A stretch of 64,000 nt of DNA from a virus: positions 71,655 through 135,654 of IMG/VR virus record IMGVR_UViG_3300023074_000001; one strand, 5' to 3'. Shown here piece by piece: positions 2,863-23,786 of the stretch. Made by a program: the position numbers and the translations under genes. Within the stretch, counting starts at the first letter, position 1. Each line of letters opens with the position of its first letter. A model generated the notes under the pieces. The model worked only from the letters and a program-made list of their open reading frames with translations. It had not been told where the DNA came from and did not search any database.

Positions 2863-3060
2863 ATGAAGCTCAAGACGTGGGACATGATCGAACTGTTCGG
2901 TACCACTCACGTTCGCATCCCGCAGAGCACGATGGCGGTTTGTGAGGCTACCCTCAACCCCAACATTGAGGTAACCGTGATCGACAACATCCGTCAGAGC
3001 ATCACGTGTGACCGTTGTCTCACTACTCTCCAGAGTCTCCAGATTCCCACTAGCGTGTGA
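2863..3060 (+). CDS. small Cys/His-containing hypothetical protein
   Basis: ATG at 2863 with AAGGGAG RBS; H..C..CDRC motif. Confidence 0.65.
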   Translation: MKLKTWDMIELFGTTHVRIPQSTMAVCEATLNPNIEVTVIDNIRQSITCDRCLTTLQSLQIPTSV

Positions 3061-3109
3061 CCTAGTTCACAGGATGGGGGTTGCAAGATCGGCCCCCATC
3101 CACTAGGGT
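3056..3109 (+). promoter_or_regulatory. early promoter with perfect TGTGA-N6-TCACA box
   Basis: TGTGA-CCTAGT-TCACA(3056-3071), 9 bp, TTGCAA-17-TAGGGT; GGATGGGGG/CCCCCATCC inverted repeat. Confidence 0.7.
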
Positions 3110-3344: not shown

Positions 3345-3354
3345 CAGATTCAAC

Positions 3355-3383
3355 TTGCACGGCAACCGCAAGCCTGGTAGTGT
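3355..3383 (+). promoter_or_regulatory. early promoter
   Basis: TTGCAC-17-TAGTGT with extended TGn. Confidence 0.7.
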
Positions 3384-3421
3384 TCTCCATATCAGCAAGT
3401 CAACGAGCTAGGGAGTGCATC

Positions 3422-4111
3422 ATGTCGGAAGCCCTGAAGACCTACTACAGCCTCAGCGCGAAGCTCCCCCGCACCAACTCGGTTCGTGCTGCCGCCGCCA
3501 GCTTGGTCCAGTCTTCCGCCATGGGCACCAACGAGGAGGTCATCCGCAAGGCGAACGGCTGGCTCCTCCAGGAAATCTTGGAAATGGGCTTGACGACCGA
3601 TGACGGCTCGACTAGTGTTGACCACAACAGCAACGACAACGCCTCGGAGGACACCATGTACGCCGACACCCTGAACTCGAAGAACTACACCGTCAAGGCT
3701 CTGAAGGAGATCGCTAAGCGGATGGGGCTCAAGCGGTACTCGGCGCTCCGTAAGGCTGACCTGGCGAACCTGATCGCGGAGAACATCGAGATTCCGGTGA
3801 TCCTGAGCACCGAGGTTGAGGCTGACATCGTGCCGATCAGCGAGATCATGGAGGCGGTCAAGGCTGAGCTTGCCGCTAGCACCCCCGTTAAGGCTCCTCA
3901 GATGGCCGCTACCGAGACAGATGCGGATGAGGATGCTCCCCTGACGGTAGAGGAGATCGTGACCGCCTACACGAACATGAAGCGCACGTGGAACCGTGCA
4001 ACCGGCAAGCTTGCCCTGAGCCTGATGACCAAGCTGATCAAGATGCGCACTGAGGTCAAGGCCATGGGGTTCAACCCGGTGGCCGTGGGTATGGGTTACT
4101 CGGTAGCGTGA
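3422..4111 (+). CDS. early protein with internal Rho-N-like domain
   Basis: YTVKALKEIAKRMGLKRYSALRKADLANLI; ATG at 3422 with GGGAG RBS; high-GC codon usage. Confidence 0.75.
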   Translation: MSEALKTYYSLSAKLPRTNSVRAAAASLVQSSAMGTNEEVIRKANGWLLQEILEMGLTTDDGSTSVDHNSNDNASEDTMYADTLNSKNYTVKALKEIAKRMGLKRYSALRKADLANLIAENIEIPVILSTEVEADIVPISEIMEAVKAELAASTPVKAPQMAATETDADEDAPLTVEEIVTAYTNMKRTWNRATGKLALSLMTKLIKMRTEVKAMGFNPVAVGMGYSVA

Positions 4112-8364: not shown

Positions 8365-9456
8365 TCAAGCCTGAAAAGATTTCATAGCGTCTAAACTCAT
8401 AGCAGCAGACGTAGGAGGTACTATTTGAGGCTGAGGTTCTACTATTGCTCCCGCAAATGCCTCACCAACAATGGAAAAAGCCATTTCTAGGCTCCTCATG
8501 GGGTCGTTAAGGGCTAACTTAGTCTGCAACTCCCACATAATCTTCATAGCCTTCAATAATTGCCCCAAATTAAGCTTACTAGCCAGCATTTGACGCTCAG
8601 CAAGAGCATTTCCTTCGTAACAGGAGGTAATTCCCGCCTTCAGCAGCATAATATCCTTGATAGTTTCGATGATTCTGTCTGCAATTTCATCAGAATTAAC
8701 GTAATAAGCAGTCTCTTCGAGCTTTTTCAAGGCCGAAATAGGGCCTCCTACGGCACTCAGCAACAATGTTGGCCCAAAATCAATATTCCCGTGAAGAAGG
8801 TTGTATTGCTCTACAGAAGTAATTTCTGCTAACCACACCTGCTCCAAAAGCATTAAACTCTCTCTAAATGAGCCCTCAGAGCGCTGGGCTATGAGATTAA
8901 CAAGAGAATCATCGATATTAATACCCTCTTGCTCGATAACATAGGTCAAACGGCTTTTCAAATCCTCTAATGAGGCTCTTTTGAAGAAATATCTATCGCA
9001 TCTATGCCTGATAGCAGGCTCAAGTGCCTGAGGTTCTGTCGTGCAAAGAATAATTATTACATTTTTAGGAGGAAACTCCAACAAATGCAACAAAGCATCA
9101 AATGCTTGGTCGCTGATGGAGTGTACCTCATCGATAATAACTACTTTATTTCCTGCTGAGGAGTAGTTGAGGTTCCTTTTCAACTCTCGAATAGCGTCTA
9201 CGGAGCCGTTGGAGGCTGCATCGATCTCGATGACTGCTGGATGCCTGCCTTCATGTACCTCCTGCGCGCCCTCAGAATTAATCTGAGAGGCTACGATGCG
9301 TGCCATGCTAGTCTTACCTACCCCCGATGGGCCGGTAAATAATAAAACCTGTGAGAGCTTGTCTTTAGCAATCATGGCAGACAGAATAGCGGCAGTAGCG
9401 TGCTGACCTACGACATCCTTAAACTCTTTTGGCCTGTACTTCAAGGCTAGTGTCAT
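8365..9456 (-). CDS. dnaX: DNA polymerase III gamma/tau-like clamp loader subunit
   Basis: LALKYRP..F.DVVGQ; GPSGVGKT; IEIDAAS; IIDEVH; LEFPP; CTTE. Confidence 0.92.
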   Translation of the reverse strand: MTLALKYRPKEFKDVVGQHATAAILSAMIAKDKLSQVLLFTGPSGVGKTSMARIVASQINSEGAQEVHEGRHPAVIEIDAASNGSVDAIRELKRNLNYSSAGNKVVIIDEVHSISDQAFDALLHLLEFPPKNVIIILCTTEPQALEPAIRHRCDRYFFKRASLEDLKSRLTYVIEQEGINIDDSLVNLIAQRSEGSFRESLMLLEQVWLAEITSVEQYNLLHGNIDFGPTLLLSAVGGPISALKKLEETAYYVNSDEIADRIIETIKDIMLLKAGITSCYEGNALAERQMLASKLNLGQLLKAMKIMWELQTKLALNDPMRSLEMAFSIVGEAFAGAIVEPQPQIVPPTSAAMSLDAMKSFQA

Positions 9457-9478
9457 TTAAATCTCCTAAAATGAAGAA

Positions 9479-9502
9479 AGCTCTACTCAATTGAGTAGAG
9501 CT
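9479..9502 (-). terminator. palindromic hairpin terminator
   Basis: AGCTCTACTCAATTGAGTAGAGCT followed by TTCTTC on the minus strand. Confidence 0.55.
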
Positions 9503-9506
9503 ACTA

Positions 9507-9656
9507 TCACTTCTGCTTGGTTTCAATATCCTTTGCAGATACCTTGCGATCCTTATTACCAGAATAACCATTGCCTGTCTGCGGGCCACCATGACGAGGA
9601 ATATGCCCATCCTTTGTCTTAGCGGTCTTCAACTGATCCTTGTGCTTACCAGCCAC
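9507..9656 (-). CDS. 49-aa basic microprotein (MAGKHKDQLK...)
   Basis: GTG with GAAAGG RBS; manually translated; ends just before the terminator. Confidence 0.5.
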   Translation of the reverse strand: MAGKHKDQLKTAKTKDGHIPRHGGPQTGNGYSGNKDRKVSAKDIETKQK

Positions 9657-9802
9657 TTAATTACCTTTCGTTGTACCGGCTACCTGGAGTGGTGTTATTT
9701 GTGTTTTTAGGCTCTGTAGCCTTACTTCCTTTGCTTTGCCTGGTAATTCCCCCAGGCAAACTAACTCCACAATAATTAGATTTCTTACGTTTAACGCCCA
9801 TG

Positions 9803-9913
9803 TTCCGCGACCAGGATTCGAACCTGTACCTCTAGATTATCAGTCTAGTATGCTAACCCATTAGGCTTACTTAAGGCTCCGGCGACCTCGTTTTCAGCTT
9901 ACATCATCGCGGA
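9803..9913 (-). tRNA. tRNA-Ile(GAT)-like gene with about 38 nt extra in the D-loop
   Basis: Acceptor TCCGCGA/TCGCGGA; anticodon arm CTAGA-CTGATAA-TCTAG; T-loop TTCGAAT; 111 nt total. Confidence 0.7.
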
Positions 9914-9920
9914 TAGAATT

Positions 9921-10162
9921 GCTAGCCATGGTGCCTTCCTGCTAGCTGTAGACCTTACAAGACCCGATCTCGTATGTCTACTGTCTGCGGCCAGACAACA
10001 GAGCGTCCTTAAAGACGGGTGTTATACATTCCATAATGTCGGGTAGTATGTTCAGGACTCATCCCTACCTGAACTGTGCGGGCCTCCTACTCGGCCTTCC
10101 GCTTCGGTGGACAGTTTAAAGTTTTATTGAAAGGTCGTCATGAACTGACAATTTATCGACCT
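9921..10162 (-). ncRNA. putative multi-hairpin structured RNA
   Basis: Successive stems AGGTCG/CGACCT, GTTCAGG/CCTGAAC, TGTCTG/CAGACA, GTAGAC/GTCTAC, GCTAGC/GCTAGC; no ORF in the track. Confidence 0.45.
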
Positions 10163-10164
10163 CG

Positions 10165-10244
10165 TGGAATCAGCGGAATTCGAACCCACATCTCCGGCAT
10201 TAAATCCGGCGTTTTATCCTTTTACACTTTTAAACTATGACCCC
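10165..10244 (-). tRNA. aberrant tRNA (enlarged D-loop, anticodon loop one nt short; possible TAA anticodon)
   Basis: GGGGTCA/TGATTCC acceptor; GTGGG-TTCGAAT-TCCGC T-arm; CCGG-ATTTAATG-CCGG anticodon arm. Confidence 0.55.
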
Positions 10245-10335
10245 AGGTACTAGTTTTATATGAATACACAACCTTTTAAGGGCATGTAACTCTGGACTTT
10301 ACGTGTATCTTCGTAAAACTAGCAAAAACGGAGCG

Positions 10336-10473
10336 TGCCAGGTAGAGGAATCGAACCCCATAGACCTTGCAAGGTCAGCGTACGTCATTACTTCGCGCGA
10401 ACTAGTAAGAGCGGTATGCAGCCTATGCACCTTGTAGGTTCTTGATACTCAAAAGTATCCCACCAGGCCCGGC
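10336..10473 (-). ncRNA. 138-nt tRNA-like RNA with branched anticodon domain
   Basis: GCCGGG/CCTGGC acceptor; GGGG-TTCGATT-CCTC T-arm; GACC-TTGCAA-GGTC arm; extra hairpins GATAC/GTATC, GTGCA/TGCAT, TTACT/AGTAA. Confidence 0.55.
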
Positions 10474-10485
10474 TAGATTTGTTAA

Positions 10486-10659
10486 TTAGTGCATGGTTTT
10501 TACATGATAGTAAAGGGCATCCTTGGCGGCCTTACGAGAGTTTTTATTGTAAGCCAAGTTAATCGTCAGGCCACATTGAGGGCATCTTGCAGCCCATCTT
10601 TTTTGCTTTCTTGTCCAATAATCAGAATAAGCTCGTTTAATAATAGTGCAGTCAGACAT
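10486..10659 (-). CDS. 57-aa C2H2-like zinc-finger microprotein
   Basis: Manual translation MSDCTIIK..RCPQCG..YHVKTMH; AAAGGA RBS. Confidence 0.6.
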   Translation of the reverse strand: MSDCTIIKRAYSDYWTRKQKRWAARCPQCGLTINLAYNKNSRKAAKDALYYHVKTMH

Positions 10660-10839
10660 AATGTTTCCTTTTTAGTTTAGTATCAGGCTCGTCACCTACC
10701 TGACATGGTTGCCCTCCTATTACCGCGCAACTTCTCTTCTCGCACCAAATGAACGCGATATCTCAGACGCATTCGGCTGTAGCCTTGTTCACTAATGCCT
10801 TATGAGGGCAGTCAAACATGGAGATATACTCGGCTTAAG

Positions 10840-10910
10840 CTGACCCACAAGGATTCGAACCTCGATAGACAGTGCCAAAAACTGTCGTCCTGCCGTTAGA
10901 CGATGGGTCA
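10840..10910 (-). tRNA. tRNA-Gln(TTG)
   Basis: Full cloverleaf: TGACCCA/TGGGTCA; ACAGT-TTTTGGC-ACTGT; TTCGAAT. Confidence 0.93.
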
Positions 10911-11113
10911 TCGTATTCTTAATCCCAGGTCGCATCTATTTTCATAGAATTACCTCTCATCATTTACACTCACACTGCTTCCAATGAAAGTTAGTGCCCA
11001 GACCTAAAGCAGGGCAACCCTTTTTATGCTTTAACTGATGAGTCCTAGCGGTACTCATGGGTCGTTTTGCTCCATCAGATTCTACTGCTGCTGGCCCCTT
11101 ACTCTTTTTCACG

Positions 11114-11185
11114 CTGCCTACCCAGGATTCGAACCTGGACTAAGAGAGTCAGAGTCTCTTGTGCTGCCAATTACACAAATAGGCA
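11114..11185 (-). tRNA. tRNA-Gln(CTG)
   Basis: TGCCTAT/GTAGGCA; AGAGA-CTCTGAC-TCTCT; CCAGG-TTCGAAT-CCTGG. Confidence 0.93.
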
Positions 11186-11273
11186 TTGCAGTTAATTTGT
11201 TTTTCAGAGATCCTGTTGGTTAAGGGGCGTGCCCGATTATCTCTGTCGGTTAAATTAACAAATATCCGAGGCG

Positions 11274-11346
11274 TGCCACAGATGGGATTCGAACCCACAA
11301 CAAACAGTTTAGGAAACTGCTACTCTATCCTTTGAGCTACTGCGGC
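11274..11346 (-). tRNA. tRNA-Arg(CCT)
   Basis: GCCGCAG/CTGTGGC; GCAGT-TTCCTAA-ACTGT; GTGGG-TTCGAAT-CCCAT. Confidence 0.93.
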
Positions 11347-11349
11347 AAG

Positions 11350-11433
11350 TGTGAGGGAACCTGAACAAGAAGGGTAATCTCAACCACATTCCGGCTGCCA
11401 TCCTAAGGTCAGCGAAGTCCTTGCTCCCTCACA
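11350..11433 (-). ncRNA. putative structured RNA at the 5' end of the tRNA transcript
   Basis: TGTGAGGGA/TCCCTCACA terminal stem starting about 6 nt after the -10; inner GAGCAAGGA/TTCTTGTTC. Confidence 0.5.
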
Positions 11434-11439
11434 TCAACT

Positions 11440-11468
11440 ACATTACATCATCTTGCTGCACTTGTCAA
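11440..11468 (-). promoter_or_regulatory. promoter for the tRNA/ncRNA cluster
   Basis: TTGACA-17-TAATGT on the minus strand. Confidence 0.75.
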
Positions 11469-12202
11469 CCTTGACGCACATGAGTTAACACTGTATCCCA
11501 GAAATCTTCAGGAGGTAGAGTATTATAAGGATTGTAGTCCTCACCCAGAGCGTCTGGCGTTAGGTAAATTAAACCAGCTCTACGCCTGCGTGTCAAGGCC
11601 AGGACATCATCTAGGTGAGTTACACCATACACTATATGCCAGAATCGACTTGAGGGATAGTTAATCTGCCATGGCGCAGGTGTATGACTTGCATAATCTG
11701 CTTCTGAGCCTTCAAAAGTAGAAATAGCATCACCAGCAAGCATATAAGATTCATCAGGAATGGTACCACAGTTCAAAATTACTGTATTTGCTCCTGATGA
11801 CCCATTGTTTAAATCACCGATCCTGTTACGCAAATCAACATAGAATGGCTGCTTACTCTTTTCTGAAGAGACCTCATCGAAGAAAATTCCATCTACTTTG
11901 TACCAGTTGATGTACTTAACTACTTCAGCCATAATAGCTGTCTTGGTTTTGTTCGTGTAAGAAGTAGTTACATAACCAACTATCTTAATGCCAGCCGCCT
12001 GAGCACGTTTGACTTGAGTAGCCCATTCAGCAGACTTTGTAGTTCCAGGGCTTGATGCAGGATTTAGCACAGCATATTTTACATAGGGTGCATCAGTTTG
12101 CATACGTTCCCATTCTGCATCTGGATTATTTTGCATCCAGGTAGCATAGAAATAGGCAGGAACTGCAATTCTTTGTACGGCATCACCGTATTCAGTCGTC
12201 AT
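11465..12202 (-). CDS. spherulin-4/Sph3-like glycoside hydrolase (GH135-like)
   Basis: VPAYFY; VLNPASSPG; GYV.T.Y; VDGIFFDE; ILNCGT; TFEG; HIVYGV motifs. Confidence 0.85.
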   Translation of the reverse strand: MTTEYGDAVQRIAVPAYFYATWMQNNPDAEWERMQTDAPYVKYAVLNPASSPGTTKSAEWATQVKRAQAAGIKIVGYVTTSYTNKTKTAIMAEVVKYINWYKVDGIFFDEVSSEKSKQPFYVDLRNRIGDLNNGSSGANTVILNCGTIPDESYMLAGDAISTFEGSEADYASHTPAPWQINYPSSRFWHIVYGVTHLDDVLALTRRRRAGLIYLTPDALGEDYNPYNTLPPEDFWDTVLTHVRQG

Positions 12203-22697: not shown

Positions 22698-23786
22698 TTA
22701 GTCGGCATCGTTGGACACCTTTACAGGAGAATAATCATGCTTAGGCTTACAACGACGCAACCACTCTGGACGAATGTTCTTACCATCGTAAAGATTAAAC
22801 AGAGCCCAAGCATAGTTATGATCCTTTGCCTTCATAGCAAATTCCTTCTTGCTCGGGTTGACTCCAATTTCAGTAAGAATTCGATCATAGCTGATGCAGC
22901 AATACTCTACAAACTCATCAACCTCAGTATCAATGTCGTCCTGAACTCCGCGAACAAAGCCGTGGAACTCATCCGGTACCTTCTCGATAAGTTCATCAAC
23001 AGTACCATCTACCATAGCCTGCCACACAGAACGAGCATTCAGTCCTGTAACAATACGGTGAAGTGCGATGTAATCCTCCTGCTTAATCTTGACACGAACA
23101 TCATGATTGTACAGGTTGACAACAAAGCCTTCCTTACCTGCGCGTGGAGGTGCCTCTAGTGCCTCTCGAAAAGTAGTGTACGGAAAAGACTCAGCCTTAG
23201 GTCCGGGCCAACTCCAATCCAGTACACCAGCATCCCAGTTGTCGCCGGTTGAGATATCTACTGAAGCCAGAAGAATTAAATCATCCATGTCGCCGTAATC
23301 ACACACAATACGGTTCTCGGGATAGATAATTTCAAACAACAGAGTAATACCCTTAGGAGGAACATAATTTGCGTACTTGGTACGGAACAACTTAGTAGCA
23401 TGGATAGCCTGCTCGGAAGCGAAACTACCGCGAGTAGCAATAGCGTATTCACCACTCAGAGGTTCACGATACAAAATACCCAGGGAACCATCCATCTTGT
23501 CAGAAACAACAGCAGGCTCATCAAGATCGATAGTAGGACAACCTACCTGGCCGTAGTTGAAGAACTTAGGTAGCGGACGAGCAACAATCCAATTGAAGGC
23601 ATCCACAATAAGCCCACGACAATTCATGGTGACCTTATTCCAAACACCGTCGAATGCTGCTTTTTCGGTGTAGTTAAGGATAAACAGTTCAGGATTGTCA
23701 GGGTGAGTATTAACACGGACATAGCCCTGCTCAAGCATGTTAGCAAATGCATCCTCTCGAAAGAGGATGTTAGTGTGATCCTTCAT
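22698..23786 (-). CDS. RNA ligase (T4 Rnl1-like)
   Basis: CRGLI; PKFFN; K(M)DGS motif I; ATRGSF; FEII; EGFVV; VKIK. Confidence 0.92.
   Translation of the reverse strand: MKDHTNILFREDAFANMLEQGYVRVNTHPDNPELFILNYTEKAAFDGVWNKVTMNCRGLIVDAFNWIVARPLPKFFNYGQVGCPTIDLDEPAVVSDKMDGSLGILYREPLSGEYAIATRGSFASEQAIHATKLFRTKYANYVPPKGITLLFEIIYPENRIVCDYGDMDDLILLASVDISTGDNWDAGVLDWSWPGPKAESFPYTTFREALEAPPRAGKEGFVVNLYNHDVRVKIKQEDYIALHRIVTGLNARSVWQAMVDGTVDELIEKVPDEFHGFVRGVQDDIDTEVDEFVEYCCISYDRILTEIGVNPSKKEFAMKAKDHNYAWALFNLYDGKNIRPEWLRRCKPKHDYSPVKVSNDAD

What the first reader, a model, noticed from the sequence alone, without database searches (positions are those of the whole stretch)
9803..11435. tRNA transcript interleaved with several unexplained structured RNAs
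Seen: one promoter (11440-11468) heads 1.6 kb in which nearly every spacer between tRNAs has stems: 11350-11433, 11191-11259 (GTTAATTT/AAATTAAC, CAGAGAT/ATCTCTG), about 10920-11100, about 10685-10820 (TGCCCTC/GAGGGCA), 10250-10322 (CTAGTTTTA/TAAAACTAG) and 9921-10162 (at least six hairpins). Inference: tRNA processing could release a set of novel phage ncRNAs, such as decoys for anti-phage nucleases or sensors, antitoxin mimics or ribozymes.
Basis: partly seen in the sequence, partly recalled or inferred. Interest (0 to 1): 0.72.

Follow-up and report, generated by a model that had tools for sequence, protein, structure and literature searches.

The report
Phage tRNA operon carrying novel RNAs
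A soil phage's tRNA operon also carries about nine conserved, folded RNA genes of unknown function, several from families not yet catalogued, packed end to end with the tRNAs so that tRNA processing should cut them free.

Summary
The observation largely holds, and the core of the interpretation (new phage ncRNAs released by tRNA processing) is supported by comparison with relatives, not by expression data.

On the minus strand, a conserved TTGACA-17-TAATGT promoter (11468-11440) heads about 2.0 kb that ends at a strong terminator (9502-9479). Only three canonical tRNAs lie inside (Arg-CCT, Gln-CTG, Gln-TTG).

In related soil phages the "spacers" are discrete modules:
- They have sharp borders and appear in shuffled order.
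- They are 71-92% identical in DNA, while the neighbouring clamp-loader gene is 55-64% identical (31-45% at third codon positions).

Five modules show base-pair covariation beyond shuffled and slid controls:
- leader A
- D, which has a kissing-loop pseudoknot
- I
- two odd tRNA-like genes, G and J

H, E, B and F have thinner support. C (10911-11112) has none.

Three small ORFs (57, 46 and 49 aa) also lie in the unit. No Rfam family other than tRNA matches.

Function is unknown. My best guess is that these are stable protein-binding or decoy RNAs in the phage's RNA-conflict toolkit, since the genome also encodes Ro60 and an Rnl1-type ligase.

No RNA-seq run was available. The same stretch was noted before in this scan, on this genome only.

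The parts
11440..11468 (-). Promoter: TTGACA (11468-11463), 17 nt, TAATGT (11445-11440). The -35 hexamer overlaps the TGA stop of the upstream Spherulin4-family gene.
   Evidence: Sequence. The -35 hexamer is conserved in 9 of 11 relatives in alignment A3. The generic scan did not call it.
11351..11432 (-). Module A. An 82-nt structured 5' leader that starts at about the predicted transcription start and ends 4 nt before tRNA-Arg. It has a 10-bp closing stem and invariant internal motifs (CUUAGGAUG, GGUUG, GUUCAGG).
   Evidence: nhmmer finds it in 13 loci. On 12 sequences, 97.3% of cells are paired and 6 pairs changed on both sides; 1 of 500 shuffles reached that. z = -3.0. It is 83-92% identical to the relatives.
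11273..11346 (-). tRNA-Arg (CCT), canonical.
   Evidence: ARAGORN. Rfam 65.1 bits.
11186..11272 (-). Module B. Nested hairpin with an outer stem GUUAAUUU/AAAUUAAC and an inner stem CAGAGAU/AUCUCUG.
   Evidence: z = -3.3 for 11191-11259. The only homologue is in L061, with one compensatory and one wobble-compatible change among 11 differences.
11113..11185 (-). tRNA-Gln (CTG), canonical.
10911..11112 (-). Spacer C. A 202-nt stretch with no support as an RNA gene. It sits where relatives carry inserted ORFs or almost nothing (12 to 543 nt).
   Evidence: No homologue. z = -1.1. Spacer lengths in relatives come and their ORFs.
10839..10910 (-). tRNA-Gln (TTG), canonical.
10676..10838 (-). Module D. 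About 140-160 nt with four nested helices, a 7-bp loop-loop (kissing) pseudoknot AUAUCUC/GAGAUAU, and a 3' hairpin with a conserved purine-rich loop.
   Evidence: On 12 distinct sequences, 97.6% of cells are paired and 10 pairs changed on both sides; 0 of 500 shuffles reached that, and slid controls gave 28-40% paired. The pseudoknot is complementary in 12 of 12 sequences, with 6 different 5'-strand variants. The covariance model R1 finds it only in the close family.
10486..10659 (-). orf57. A small Cys/His-rich protein with a Shine-Dalgarno-like AGGA upstream. In relatives it lies directly upstream of module E.
   Evidence: ORF list. tblastn homologues lie directly upstream of E in L068 and L003. 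No Pfam family.
10335..10476 (-). Module E. A 142-nt tRNA-shaped RNA with an acceptor-like stem and a canonical T arm enclosing about 105 nt of other hairpins.
   Evidence: nhmmer finds it in L003, L068 and L065. No Rfam tRNA hit. z = -0.3.
10246..10334 (-). Module F. A long hairpin whose outer stem includes CUAGUUUUA/UAAAACUAG.
   Evidence: z = -2.3 to -2.7. Full-length homologue in L003 with a compensatory C-G to A-U change, and a partial one in L064.
10164..10245 (-). Module G. An odd tRNA-like gene with a G3:U70 pair and A73, a conserved 17-nt D loop, a 4-bp anticodon stem, and an anticodon loop that varies in sequence and length between relatives.
   Evidence: Rfam tRNA 39.9 bits; ARAGORN does not call it. 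On 9 sequences, 94.2% of cells are paired and 7 pairs changed on both sides; 1 of 500 shuffles reached that. Loop variation is seen.
10027..10163 (-). Module H. A 5' hairpin (GAGGUCG/CGACCUU), an A/U-rich linker, a middle hairpin, and a 3' hairpin UCAGG-UAGGGAUGAGU-CCUGA that resembles the 3' end of D.
   Evidence: nhmmer finds it in L072/L074 and L060. 23 pairs are predicted, 5 with changes on both sides, on only 3 sequences. It is a weak hit to the D model, E = 0.1-0.8. z = -0.6.
9914..10026 (-). Module I. Four hairpins in a row.
   Evidence: On 6 sequences, 91.3% of cells are paired and 10 pairs changed on both sides; 0 of 500 shuffles reached that. z = -3.2.
9803..9913 (-). Module J. A tRNA-like gene (anticodon GAU here) with about 40 extra nt in the D-loop region, including a covarying hairpin with a CCGGA loop. 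The anticodon is GAU, GUG or GUU in relatives.
   Evidence: Rfam gives a partial tRNA hit of 27.8 bits. On 8 sequences, 91.8% of cells are paired and 12 pairs changed on both sides; 0 of 500 shuffles reached that. Alignment.
9661..9801 (-). orf46. A small basic protein whose ATG starts 2 nt after J's discriminator base.
   Evidence: tblastn homologues in 8 loci, 45-57% identity, E down to 1e-10.
9507..9656 (-). orf49. A small basic ORF. Its reality is uncertain.
   Evidence: ORF list. No tblastn hit in relatives.
9479..9502 (-). Intrinsic terminator: a 10-bp stem followed by a T-rich tail. It lies upstream of the clamp-loader gene.
   Evidence: The region aligns with L062 and L060.

Best explanation
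This is a polycistronic tRNA-ncRNA operon of a large soil phage.

CONTENT. One host-type promoter drives:
- a structured leader (A);
- three ordinary tRNAs;
- three tRNA-scaffolded RNAs (E, G, J);
- at least three free-standing structured RNAs (D, H, I, and possibly B and F);
- two or three small protein genes.

GENE-LIKE MODULES. Each RNA module behaves as a separate gene. It has sharp borders, is kept under purifying selection on sequence and base pairs, and moves, is lost or is gained independently among relatives, as tRNA genes do in arrays.

PROCESSING (inferred). The modules abut tRNA or tRNA-like ends, and none of the tRNAs encodes CCA. RNase P cutting at tRNA 5' ends, and RNase Z-type cutting after the discriminator base, would therefore excise the modules as discrete RNAs. 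The hairpin at their 3' ends would then guard against exonucleases.

FUNCTION (guess). The released RNAs act in trans as stable protein-binding RNAs, as decoys, sponges or scaffolds, in the phage's RNA-level conflict with the host. They would work alongside the phage's own Ro60, Rnl1-type RNA ligase and 33 tRNAs.

STATUS. Shown: conservation, covariation, modularity, non-coding character, absence from Rfam. Inferred: co-transcription and processing. Guess: function.
For: - SELECTION. Module identity to relatives is 71-92%, against 55-64% for the adjacent clamp-loader gene and 31-45% at its third codon positions.
- COVARIATION beyond 500 shuffles and +/-1-3 column slides: D, J, A, G, I.
- D PSEUDOKNOT. 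It is complementary in 12 of 12 sequences, with 6 variants of the 5' strand.
- MODULARITY. The order differs between loci. Examples are D-G-H-J in L060 and L072, E-D-J in L068, F-J...E...I in L003, and I-G...J in L062.
- ABUTMENT. Examples: L073 Gln 2813-2885 | D 2885-3024 | Gln 3025-3101; L062 Gln 3347-3419 | D 3419-3560 | tRNA 3560-3633.
- NON-CODING. There are stops in the sense frames of nearly all module copies.
- NOT IN Rfam. No family except tRNA at E <= 10.
- PROMOTER AND TERMINATOR.
- RNA TOOLKIT. Ro60/TROVE ORF, Rnl1-type ligase and 33 tRNAs are in the same genome. Ro60 is also in a relative.
- PRECEDENT. T4 makes RNAC and RNAD, described as of yet unknown functions (PMC9697503, passages read). 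That these two genes lie in T4's tRNA cluster is my recollection; the passages I read did not say it.
Against: - No RNA data. No listed sequencing run is RNA, so co-transcription, processing and accumulation are unproven.
- Single-sequence folding energy is not better than shuffles for E, G, H, J and C.
- H, E, B and F rest on 2-4 sequences.
- C has no support at all.
- D is not flanked by tRNAs everywhere: there are 69- and 91-nt gaps upstream in L066 and L059, and an ORF downstream in the window.
- The shuffle control does not correct for phylogeny, and the alignments are small (6-12 sequences).
- Nothing ties any module to a binding partner.
Confidence: 0.6

Rival explanations
1. The modules are cis-acting parts of tRNA precursors. 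They would be leaders and trailers that guide or time RNase P, Z or E processing, or control transcription of the array. On this view they are not trans-acting RNAs.
For: A is the 5' leader of the operon. D and H end in a conserved hairpin 5-8 nt before the next tRNA-like 5' end. All modules touch tRNA(-like) genes.
Against: - The same module sits next to different partners. D follows Gln-TTG, Gln-CTG or E, and precedes G, a CUA tRNA, Gln-TTG, J or an ORF.
- A 140-nt RNA with four helices and a kissing loop is far more than a processing signal needs.
- Relatives process the same tRNAs with spacers of 12 nt (L059).
Confidence: 0.2
2. Some modules, H above all, are Y-RNA-like partners of the phage's own Ro60. 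They would tether or gate it, as bacterial YrlA/YrlB RNAs do.
For: - The genome encodes a 559-aa TROVE/Ro60 ORF, and so does a relative.
- H starts with GAGGUCGAU in the window, AAGGUCGAAG in L072 and GAGGUCGAUG in L060.
- That is close to the motif GNCGAAN0-1G found near the 5' end of YrlA RNAs (PMC4201824, passages read).
- It is also close to GAGUCGAA-type motifs upstream of this phage's Ro60 gene.
- G, J and E are tRNA mimics, as YrlA is.
Against: - The exact motif is present in only 1 of 3 H copies.
- In A the motif occurs in 6 of 12 copies and not near the 5' end.
- The operon lies about 48 kb from the Ro60 gene and on the other strand. Published YrlA genes lie within 4 kb and on the same strand (PMC4201824).
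- No Rfam Y RNA family matched at E <= 10.
- H's stem is a local hairpin, not a pairing of the RNA's two ends.
Confidence: 0.15
3. One or more modules (A or D) are self-cleaving ribozymes. They would cut the precursor themselves, replacing or adding to RNase P and Z.
For: There are many invariant unpaired nucleotides inside covarying helices in A and D. D has a pseudoknot. Both sit exactly at processing borders.
Against: No hit to any ribozyme family in Rfam 15 at E <= 10. The flanking tRNAs already provide processing sites. There is no biochemical test.
Confidence: 0.07
4. The spacers are neutral debris: decayed tRNA genes, or scars of mobile-element insertions in a recombination hotspot.
For: - Relatives carry HNH endonuclease genes and other ORFs between the same tRNAs.
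- Spacer lengths vary from 12 to 543 nt.
- C has no homologue and no excess stability.
- L065 carries an I/E hybrid.
Against: For A, D, G, I and J, nucleotide identity is far above that of the neighbouring gene's silent sites, and compensatory changes keep the helices. Debris would show neither.
Confidence: 0.05

Closest known systems
Phage T4 small RNAs RNAC and RNAD (stable RNA species 1 and 2; their place in T4's tRNA gene cluster is my recollection)
   Same: They are small non-tRNA RNAs of a virulent phage and still have no known function (PMC9697503, passages read: 'RNAs of yet unknown functions'). That they are co-transcribed and co-processed with T4's tRNAs is recalled, not read.
   Different: T4 has two such RNAs; here there are at least six non-tRNA or chimeric modules. 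Sequence likeness to T4 was not tested. The modules here are shuffled between relatives and include a pseudoknotted 140-nt RNA and tRNA-scaffold chimeras. Expression is shown for T4 but not here.
Bacterial and phage YrlA/YrlB Y RNAs (Ro60 partners that mimic tRNA)
   Same: They are tRNA-like domains joined to other RNA elements, they occur in genomes that encode Ro60, and they are substrates of tRNA enzymes such as RNase P (PMC4201824, abstract and passages read). This phage encodes Ro60.
   Different: In E, G and J the RNA ends lie in the acceptor stem, as in a real tRNA, not in a Ro-binding stem. The genes are 48 kb from the Ro60 gene. The 5' motif is at best approximate. No Rfam Y RNA hit.
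GOLLD and ROOL large ornate RNAs
   Same: They are structured RNAs of unknown function. GOLLD is often located near tRNAs and in prophages (PMC5737381, passage read).
   Different: Those RNAs are 580-800 nt single RNAs, whereas these are 80-160-nt modules. There was no Rfam match to either.
Phage tRNAs that escape or neutralise tRNA-targeting defences (anticodon nucleases, PARIS, retrons)
   Same: Phage tRNA arrays serve as counter-defence, and anticodon-loop changes matter there (PMC10264068, PMC11464382, PMC11555353; search listings and abstract openings only). G and J keep their body but vary their anticodon loops between relatives.
   Different: Those are functional, canonical tRNAs. G has a 4-bp anticodon stem with a loop of 7-8 nt (6-nt if A:G closes it), and J carries a 40-nt insert. 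No defence system is known for the unknown host.

Membership tests
tRNA (Rfam RF00005) | Cloverleaf scoring at or above the Rfam gathering score of 29 bits | tested here: inconclusive
   G scores 39.9 bits and passes. J scores 27.8 bits on model positions 8-63 only and fails. E, A, D, H, I, B, F and C give no hit. ARAGORN calls none of G, J or E.
tRNA (Rfam RF00005) | A 5-bp anticodon stem with a 7-nt loop (U33, purine 37) | tested here: inconclusive
   J has it (CUGAUAA). G does not. It has a 4-bp stem and, in the window, the loop AUUUAAUG, and the loop's length and sequence vary between relatives. E has no anticodon arm.
Y RNA / YrlA | A match to an Rfam Y RNA model | tested here: not met
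   No Y RNA family at E <= 10 in 9400-11800. The authors' own Infernal models are in supplements that I could not see.
Y RNA / YrlA | GNCGAAN0-1G motif near the 5' end | tested here: inconclusive
   H matches exactly in 1 of 3 copies (L072) and is one base off in the other 2. A matches in 6 of 12 copies, but in mid-molecule.
Y RNA / YrlA | Gene within about 4 kb of the Ro60 gene, on the same strand | tested here: not met
   Ro60 lies at genome 33846-34715 on the + strand. The operon lies at genome 81454-83094 on the - strand.
tmRNA | tRNA-Ala-like ends (G3:U70) enclosing pseudoknots and a tag reading frame | tested here: not met
   ARAGORN finds no tmRNA. The only Rfam tmRNA hit is an 11-nt match of 7.1 bits. 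G has G3:U70 but is a plain 80-nt cloverleaf. E's acceptor has no G3:U70.
Known self-cleaving ribozymes (hammerhead, twister, pistol, hatchet, HDV-like and others in Rfam) | A match to the family model | tested here: not met
   None at E <= 10.
Known self-cleaving ribozymes (hammerhead, twister, pistol, hatchet, HDV-like and others in Rfam) | Site-specific self-cleavage | not testable with these tools
   This needs in-vitro transcription and a cleavage assay.
Stable RNAs of phage tRNA clusters (T4 RNAC/RNAD type; a functional class, not a homology family) | Encoded inside a phage tRNA transcription unit, between or beside tRNA genes | tested here: met
Stable RNAs of phage tRNA clusters (T4 RNAC/RNAD type; a functional class, not a homology family) | Accumulates as a discrete processed RNA during infection | not testable with these tools
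   No RNA run holds the stretch.
GOLLD / ROOL | A match to the Rfam model | tested here: not met
   No hit.

The most novel reading that the evidence does not exclude
This phage family runs an RNA arsenal from one operon. tRNA punctuation would release several new RNA classes, each aimed at a different host or phage RNA-binding protein.
- G would be an alanine-accepting tRNA mimic (G3:U70, A73). Its fast-changing, non-decoding anticodon loop would serve as bait for host anticodon nucleases.
- J and E would use the tRNA body as a natural scaffold to display aptamer-like inserts.
- H would load the phage's Ro60.
- D, with its kissing-loop core and invariant unpaired bases, would be a new catalytic or sensor RNA.
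Probability: 0.15. Interest if true: 0.88.

Novelty: new variant of a known kind. Interest (0 to 1): 0.66.

Why it matters
The general idea is old: phage tRNA clusters can also carry small stable RNAs. T4's RNAC and RNAD are the standing example, and their function is still unknown.

Here the idea appears in an extreme and comparative form. At least five covariation-supported RNA families absent from Rfam, three of them built on a tRNA scaffold, behave as mobile gene cassettes in a family of about 135-kb soil phages.

This offers three things:
- new structured-RNA classes, including a kissing-loop RNA, for biochemical study;
- natural examples of the tRNA-scaffold principle used in RNA engineering;
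- a tractable set of candidates for RNA-based counter-defence, in phages that also carry Ro60, RNA ligase and 33 tRNAs.

It also warns annotators that "spacers" in phage tRNA arrays can be genes.

Tried and rejected
- EXPRESSION. The look-up of sequencing runs listed 7 runs, none on record as RNA (no RNA holder listed).
- Read laying on X2, X3, X6 and X7 gave DNA contigs only. It showed closer relatives; for example, one 8569-nt contig covers 9457-10335 with 81 differences. The list of differences was cut (122 not shown) and the sequences cannot be fetched, so I could not use them for covariation.
The many Logan/JGI relatives (120 listed of 2986 hits) could therefore not be fetched. Alignments stayed at 3-12 sequences.
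- Direct DNA search of the phage collection found only tRNA matches.
- The search for related loci with the Spherulin4-family protein found nothing. With the whole clamp-loader alignment it used generic motifs and gave mostly distant phages.
- A viral scan for module A found only two contigs that I already held.
- A D-core pattern gave 45 hits in genome contigs and 4 in viral contigs. None of the 48 new loci matched model R1 at E <= 1, so they are chance hits. The fourth viral hit was the known L081.
- No paralogues of A, D, E, H or I exist elsewhere in the genome.
- C as a remnant of the ORFs that relatives carry at that place: tblastx found nothing below E = 0.3.
- Small-protein reading of the modules: rejected because of stops in the sense frames.
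- Stop-codon recoding, considered because relatives carry a CUA tRNA: ORFs of at least 80 aa cover 88% of the window under table 11, so there is no sign of it.
- The D pseudoknot could not be entered in the count of structure pairs, because a gap puts three registers into the alignment. I tested it per sequence in a script instead.
- Literature searches turned up no description of these modules. That covers only the held library and my search terms.
- Supplements are closed. The YrlA covariance models and the phage list of PMC4201824 may bear on H.


Full report
WHERE AND WHAT.
- The window is the right-hand 64 kb of a 135,654-bp IMG/VR virus record with direct terminal repeats.
- The finding lies on the minus strand, between a Spherulin4-family gene (11465-12202) and a DnaX-like clamp-loader gene (8365-9456).
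- ARAGORN calls three tRNAs in the span: Arg-CCT 11273-11346, Gln-CTG 11113-11185 and Gln-TTG 10839-10910.
- Rfam adds an odd 80-nt tRNA at 10165-10244 (39.9 bits) and a sub-threshold partial hit at 9811-9863 (27.8 bits).
- With permissive settings (E <= 10) no other Rfam family gives a believable match in 9400-11800.

PROMOTER AND TERMINATOR.
- The generic scan missed it, because TAATGT matches TATAAT at only three positions.
- The -35 hexamer is conserved in 9 of 11 relatives.
- TTGACA-17-TAnnnT fits the actinobacterial housekeeping promoter as I recall it.
- A strong terminator (10-bp stem, T-rich tail) lies at 9502-9479.
- The unit is thus about 2.0 kb. It also holds ORFs of 57, 46 and 49 aa.

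RELATIVES.
- DNA search of named phages found only tRNA matches.
- The nearest named phage by clamp loader is Microbacterium phage Magritte, at 39.5% identity.
I did not test that.
- A protein search showed a large family of clamp loaders at 50-87% identity, many on contigs of about 130-140 kb.
- I therefore built an alignment of the family-specific C-terminal domain and scanned the metagenome contigs, which gave 19 loci.
- All loci with enough upstream DNA carry the array Arg-CCT, Gln-CTG, Gln-TTG upstream of the clamp loader.

THE SPACERS ARE MODULES.
- blastn and iterated nhmmer of the window's inter-tRNA stretches against all loci gave blocks with sharp borders. I named them A to J.

| Module | Loci with a match |
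|---|---|
| A (leader) | 13 |
| D | 14 |
| G | 11 |
| J | 9 |
| I | 6 |
| E | 3 |
| H | 3 |
| B | 1 |
| F | 1, plus a partial |
| C | 0 |

- After dropping duplicate loci (L063 = L062, L074/L081 = L072, L067 near L062), the alignments hold 12 (A), 12 (D), 9 (G), 8 (J), 6 (I), 4 (E) and 3 (H) sequences including the window.
- The order of blocks differs between genomes:
  - window: D-orf57-E-F-G-H-I-J
  - L060 and L072: D-G-H-J
  - L068: E-D-J
  - L003: F-J...E...I
  - L062: D-tRNA(CUA)-I-G...J
- Larger gaps in relatives hold ORFs, among them two HNH-type endonucleases. The array is thus a mosaic of cassettes.

SELECTION.
- Against the window, module identity is 83-92% (A), 71-84% (D), 81-89% (G), 75-82% (J) and 72-80% (I).
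- The adjacent clamp-loader gene is 55-64% identical in DNA, and 31-45% at third codon positions, in the same genomes.
- Sense-strand frames of the modules carry stops in nearly all copies.

STRUCTURE.
Counts of pairs on MAFFT alignments, with 500 column shuffles and slid-partner controls:

| Module | Cells paired | Pairs changed on both sides | Shuffles reaching that | Paired in slid controls |
|---|---|---|---|---|
| D | 97.6% | 10 | 0/500 | 28-40% |
| J | 91.8% | 12 | 0/500 | 26-45% |
| A | 97.3% | 6 | 1/500 | 43-56% |
| G | 94.2% | 7 | 1/500 | 34-58% |
| I | 91.3% | 10 | 0/500 | 31-44% |

- The shuffle control ignores phylogeny and the sets are small, so these counts are strong hints rather than proof.
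- D also has a loop-loop pseudoknot between the loops of its first and second hairpins. The two 7-mers are complementary in 12 of 12 sequences, with six different 5'-strand variants (for example AUAUCUC/GAGAUAU, GUACUCC/GGAGUAC, ACACCAU/AUGGUGU).
- Three alignment registers kept the pseudoknot out of the counting tool.
- Single-sequence folding energies are mixed:
  - C -1.1, J -1.0, H -0.6, G -0.5, E -0.3
  - the three true tRNAs: -3.4, -1.9, -1.8
  - four coding controls: +1.0 to -1.2
Covariation does.

- Those at 11191-11259 and 10250-10322 are in the MFE folds. Each is backed by one compensatory change in the single relative that has the module.
- TGCCCTC/GAGGGCA in D is not conserved. In relatives the 5' part makes a local hairpin (UGCC/GGCA, CCCC/GGGG, UCCC/GGGA, GCCC/GGGC), or is absent.
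- Nothing supports 10920-11100.

ODD tRNA-LIKE GENES.
- G keeps a cloverleaf with G3:U70 and A73 in all 8 full-length copies. By established knowledge these are the alanine identity set.
- G has a conserved 17-nt D loop and a 4-bp anticodon stem. Its loop changes in sequence and length between relatives.
- J has covarying acceptor, anticodon and T arms. It carries about 40 extra nucleotides in the D-loop region, with a covarying hairpin (loop CCGGA). Its anticodon is GAU, GUG or GUU.
- E keeps only an acceptor-like stem and a T arm around about 105 nt of other hairpins.
- A 57-aa Cys/His-rich ORF sits directly upstream of E in all three genomes that have a full E.

PUNCTUATION.
- D begins within 2 nt of a tRNA or tRNA-like 3' end in 9 of 11 assessable loci. 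The exceptions are L066 (69 nt) and L059 (91 nt); L065 cannot be judged.
- D ends within 5 nt of a tRNA-like 5' end in 8 of 12. The exceptions are the window (an ORF follows), L076, L059 and L071 (coordinates).
- In L073 and L062, D exactly fills the gap between two tRNAs.
- No tRNA here encodes CCA.
- D and H end in a similar hairpin (UCAGR-UAGGGA(A)UGAGU-YCUGA) 5-8 nt before the next gene.
- From this I infer release by RNase P and an RNase Z-type cut. It is not shown.

SPREAD.
- The covariance model of D found 14 copies, all in the close family. It found none in 24 loci of more distant phages.
- It found none among 48 loci picked by a D-core pattern from prokaryote genomes and viral contigs.
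- A, D, E, H and I are single-copy in the genome.

CONTEXT AND FUNCTION.
- The genome encodes a TROVE/Ro60 ORF, an Rnl1-type RNA ligase inside this window at about 23250-23624 and 33 ARAGORN tRNAs.
- One relative has Ro60 and another has the ligase.
- H's 5' end resembles the YrlA motif GNCGAAN0-1G (PMC4201824) and the motifs upstream of this phage's Ro60 gene. It matches exactly in only 1 of 3 copies, and the gene is 48 kb from Ro60.
- I therefore rank [quoted passage not shown] first, and cis-acting processing elements second. Ro60 partners and ribozymes are narrower options.
- No RNA run was available.

COMPARISON AND NOVELTY.
- The nearest precedent is T4's RNAC and RNAD, still of unknown function (PMC9697503). 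Their position in the tRNA cluster is my recollection.
- YrlA Y RNAs and GOLLD (near tRNAs in prophages, PMC5737381) are the other neighbours.
- None of them is a homologue by the tests run.
- My five literature searches showed no description of these modules.
- I class the finding as a new variant of a known kind, with several RNA families that are new to Rfam.

Noticed in passing
L062 3560-3633, L063 3560-3633, L067 549-623: Some relatives carry a tRNA with anticodon CUA (amber-reading; ARAGORN labels it Pyl) in the same array, directly after module D. Its acceptor stem has G3-C70, so it is not a copy of G. In the window, ORFs of at least 80 aa cover 88% under table 11, so I see no sign of recoding there.
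   Followed up: partly
window 10164-10245 and its homologues (alignments A6, A15): The odd tRNA G keeps G3:U70 and A73, the alanine identity set, in every full-length copy. Its anticodon loop reads differently in almost every relative; possible readings include UUA, CUA, UCA, UUG and UAU, in loops of 7-8 nt (6 if an A:G pair closes the stem). It looks like an alanine-chargeable body with a loop that is either under diversifying pressure or not used for decoding.
   Followed up: partly
window 10486-10659; L068 3553-3687; L003 3929-4066: A 57-aa Cys/His-rich ORF (CxxC ... HxxxxxH) lies directly upstream of module E in all three genomes with a full-length E. This suggests a protein-RNA pair. It has no Pfam family.
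   Followed up: partly
window 9799-9803: The ATG of the conserved 46-aa basic ORF starts 2 nt after the discriminator base of tRNA-like J. A cut at the tRNA 3' end would therefore leave an almost leaderless mRNA. The same close spacing is seen in L076 but not in L072.
   Followed up: partly
L003 2953-3416; L076 2337-2879; L062/L066/L064 between the two Gln tRNAs; L071 2499-3770; L072 1096-2406: Relatives carry ORFs inserted between the same tRNA genes: two HNH-type endonucleases (134 and 162 aa), a 100-143-aa protein, and a 283-367-aa secreted hydrolase-like protein. The array is an insertion hotspot.
   Followed up: partly
L065 439-576: This is a hybrid module with the 5' half of I and the 3' half of E. 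I and E share short sequence blocks, so they may be paralogues that recombine.
   Followed up: no
L059 3790-3815: In L059 the 5' acceptor strand of G is replaced by three tandem copies of the D-loop motif AAAGCGUAA. This copy is probably broken.
   Followed up: no
L062 2662-2732, L060 and L073 at the same place; L059 3143-3195 and L066 2536-2588: There are two further cassettes not present in the window. One is a hairpin module of about 65 nt between leader A and tRNA-Arg in three relatives. The other is a 56-nt insert inside leader A in two others.
   Followed up: no
window about 23250-23624 (-); genome 33846-34715 (+): An Rnl1-type RNA ligase gene lies inside this window. A 559-aa Ro60/TROVE ORF lies elsewhere in the genome, with GAGUCGAA-type Y-RNA-like motifs and T arms just upstream of it.
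   Followed up: partly
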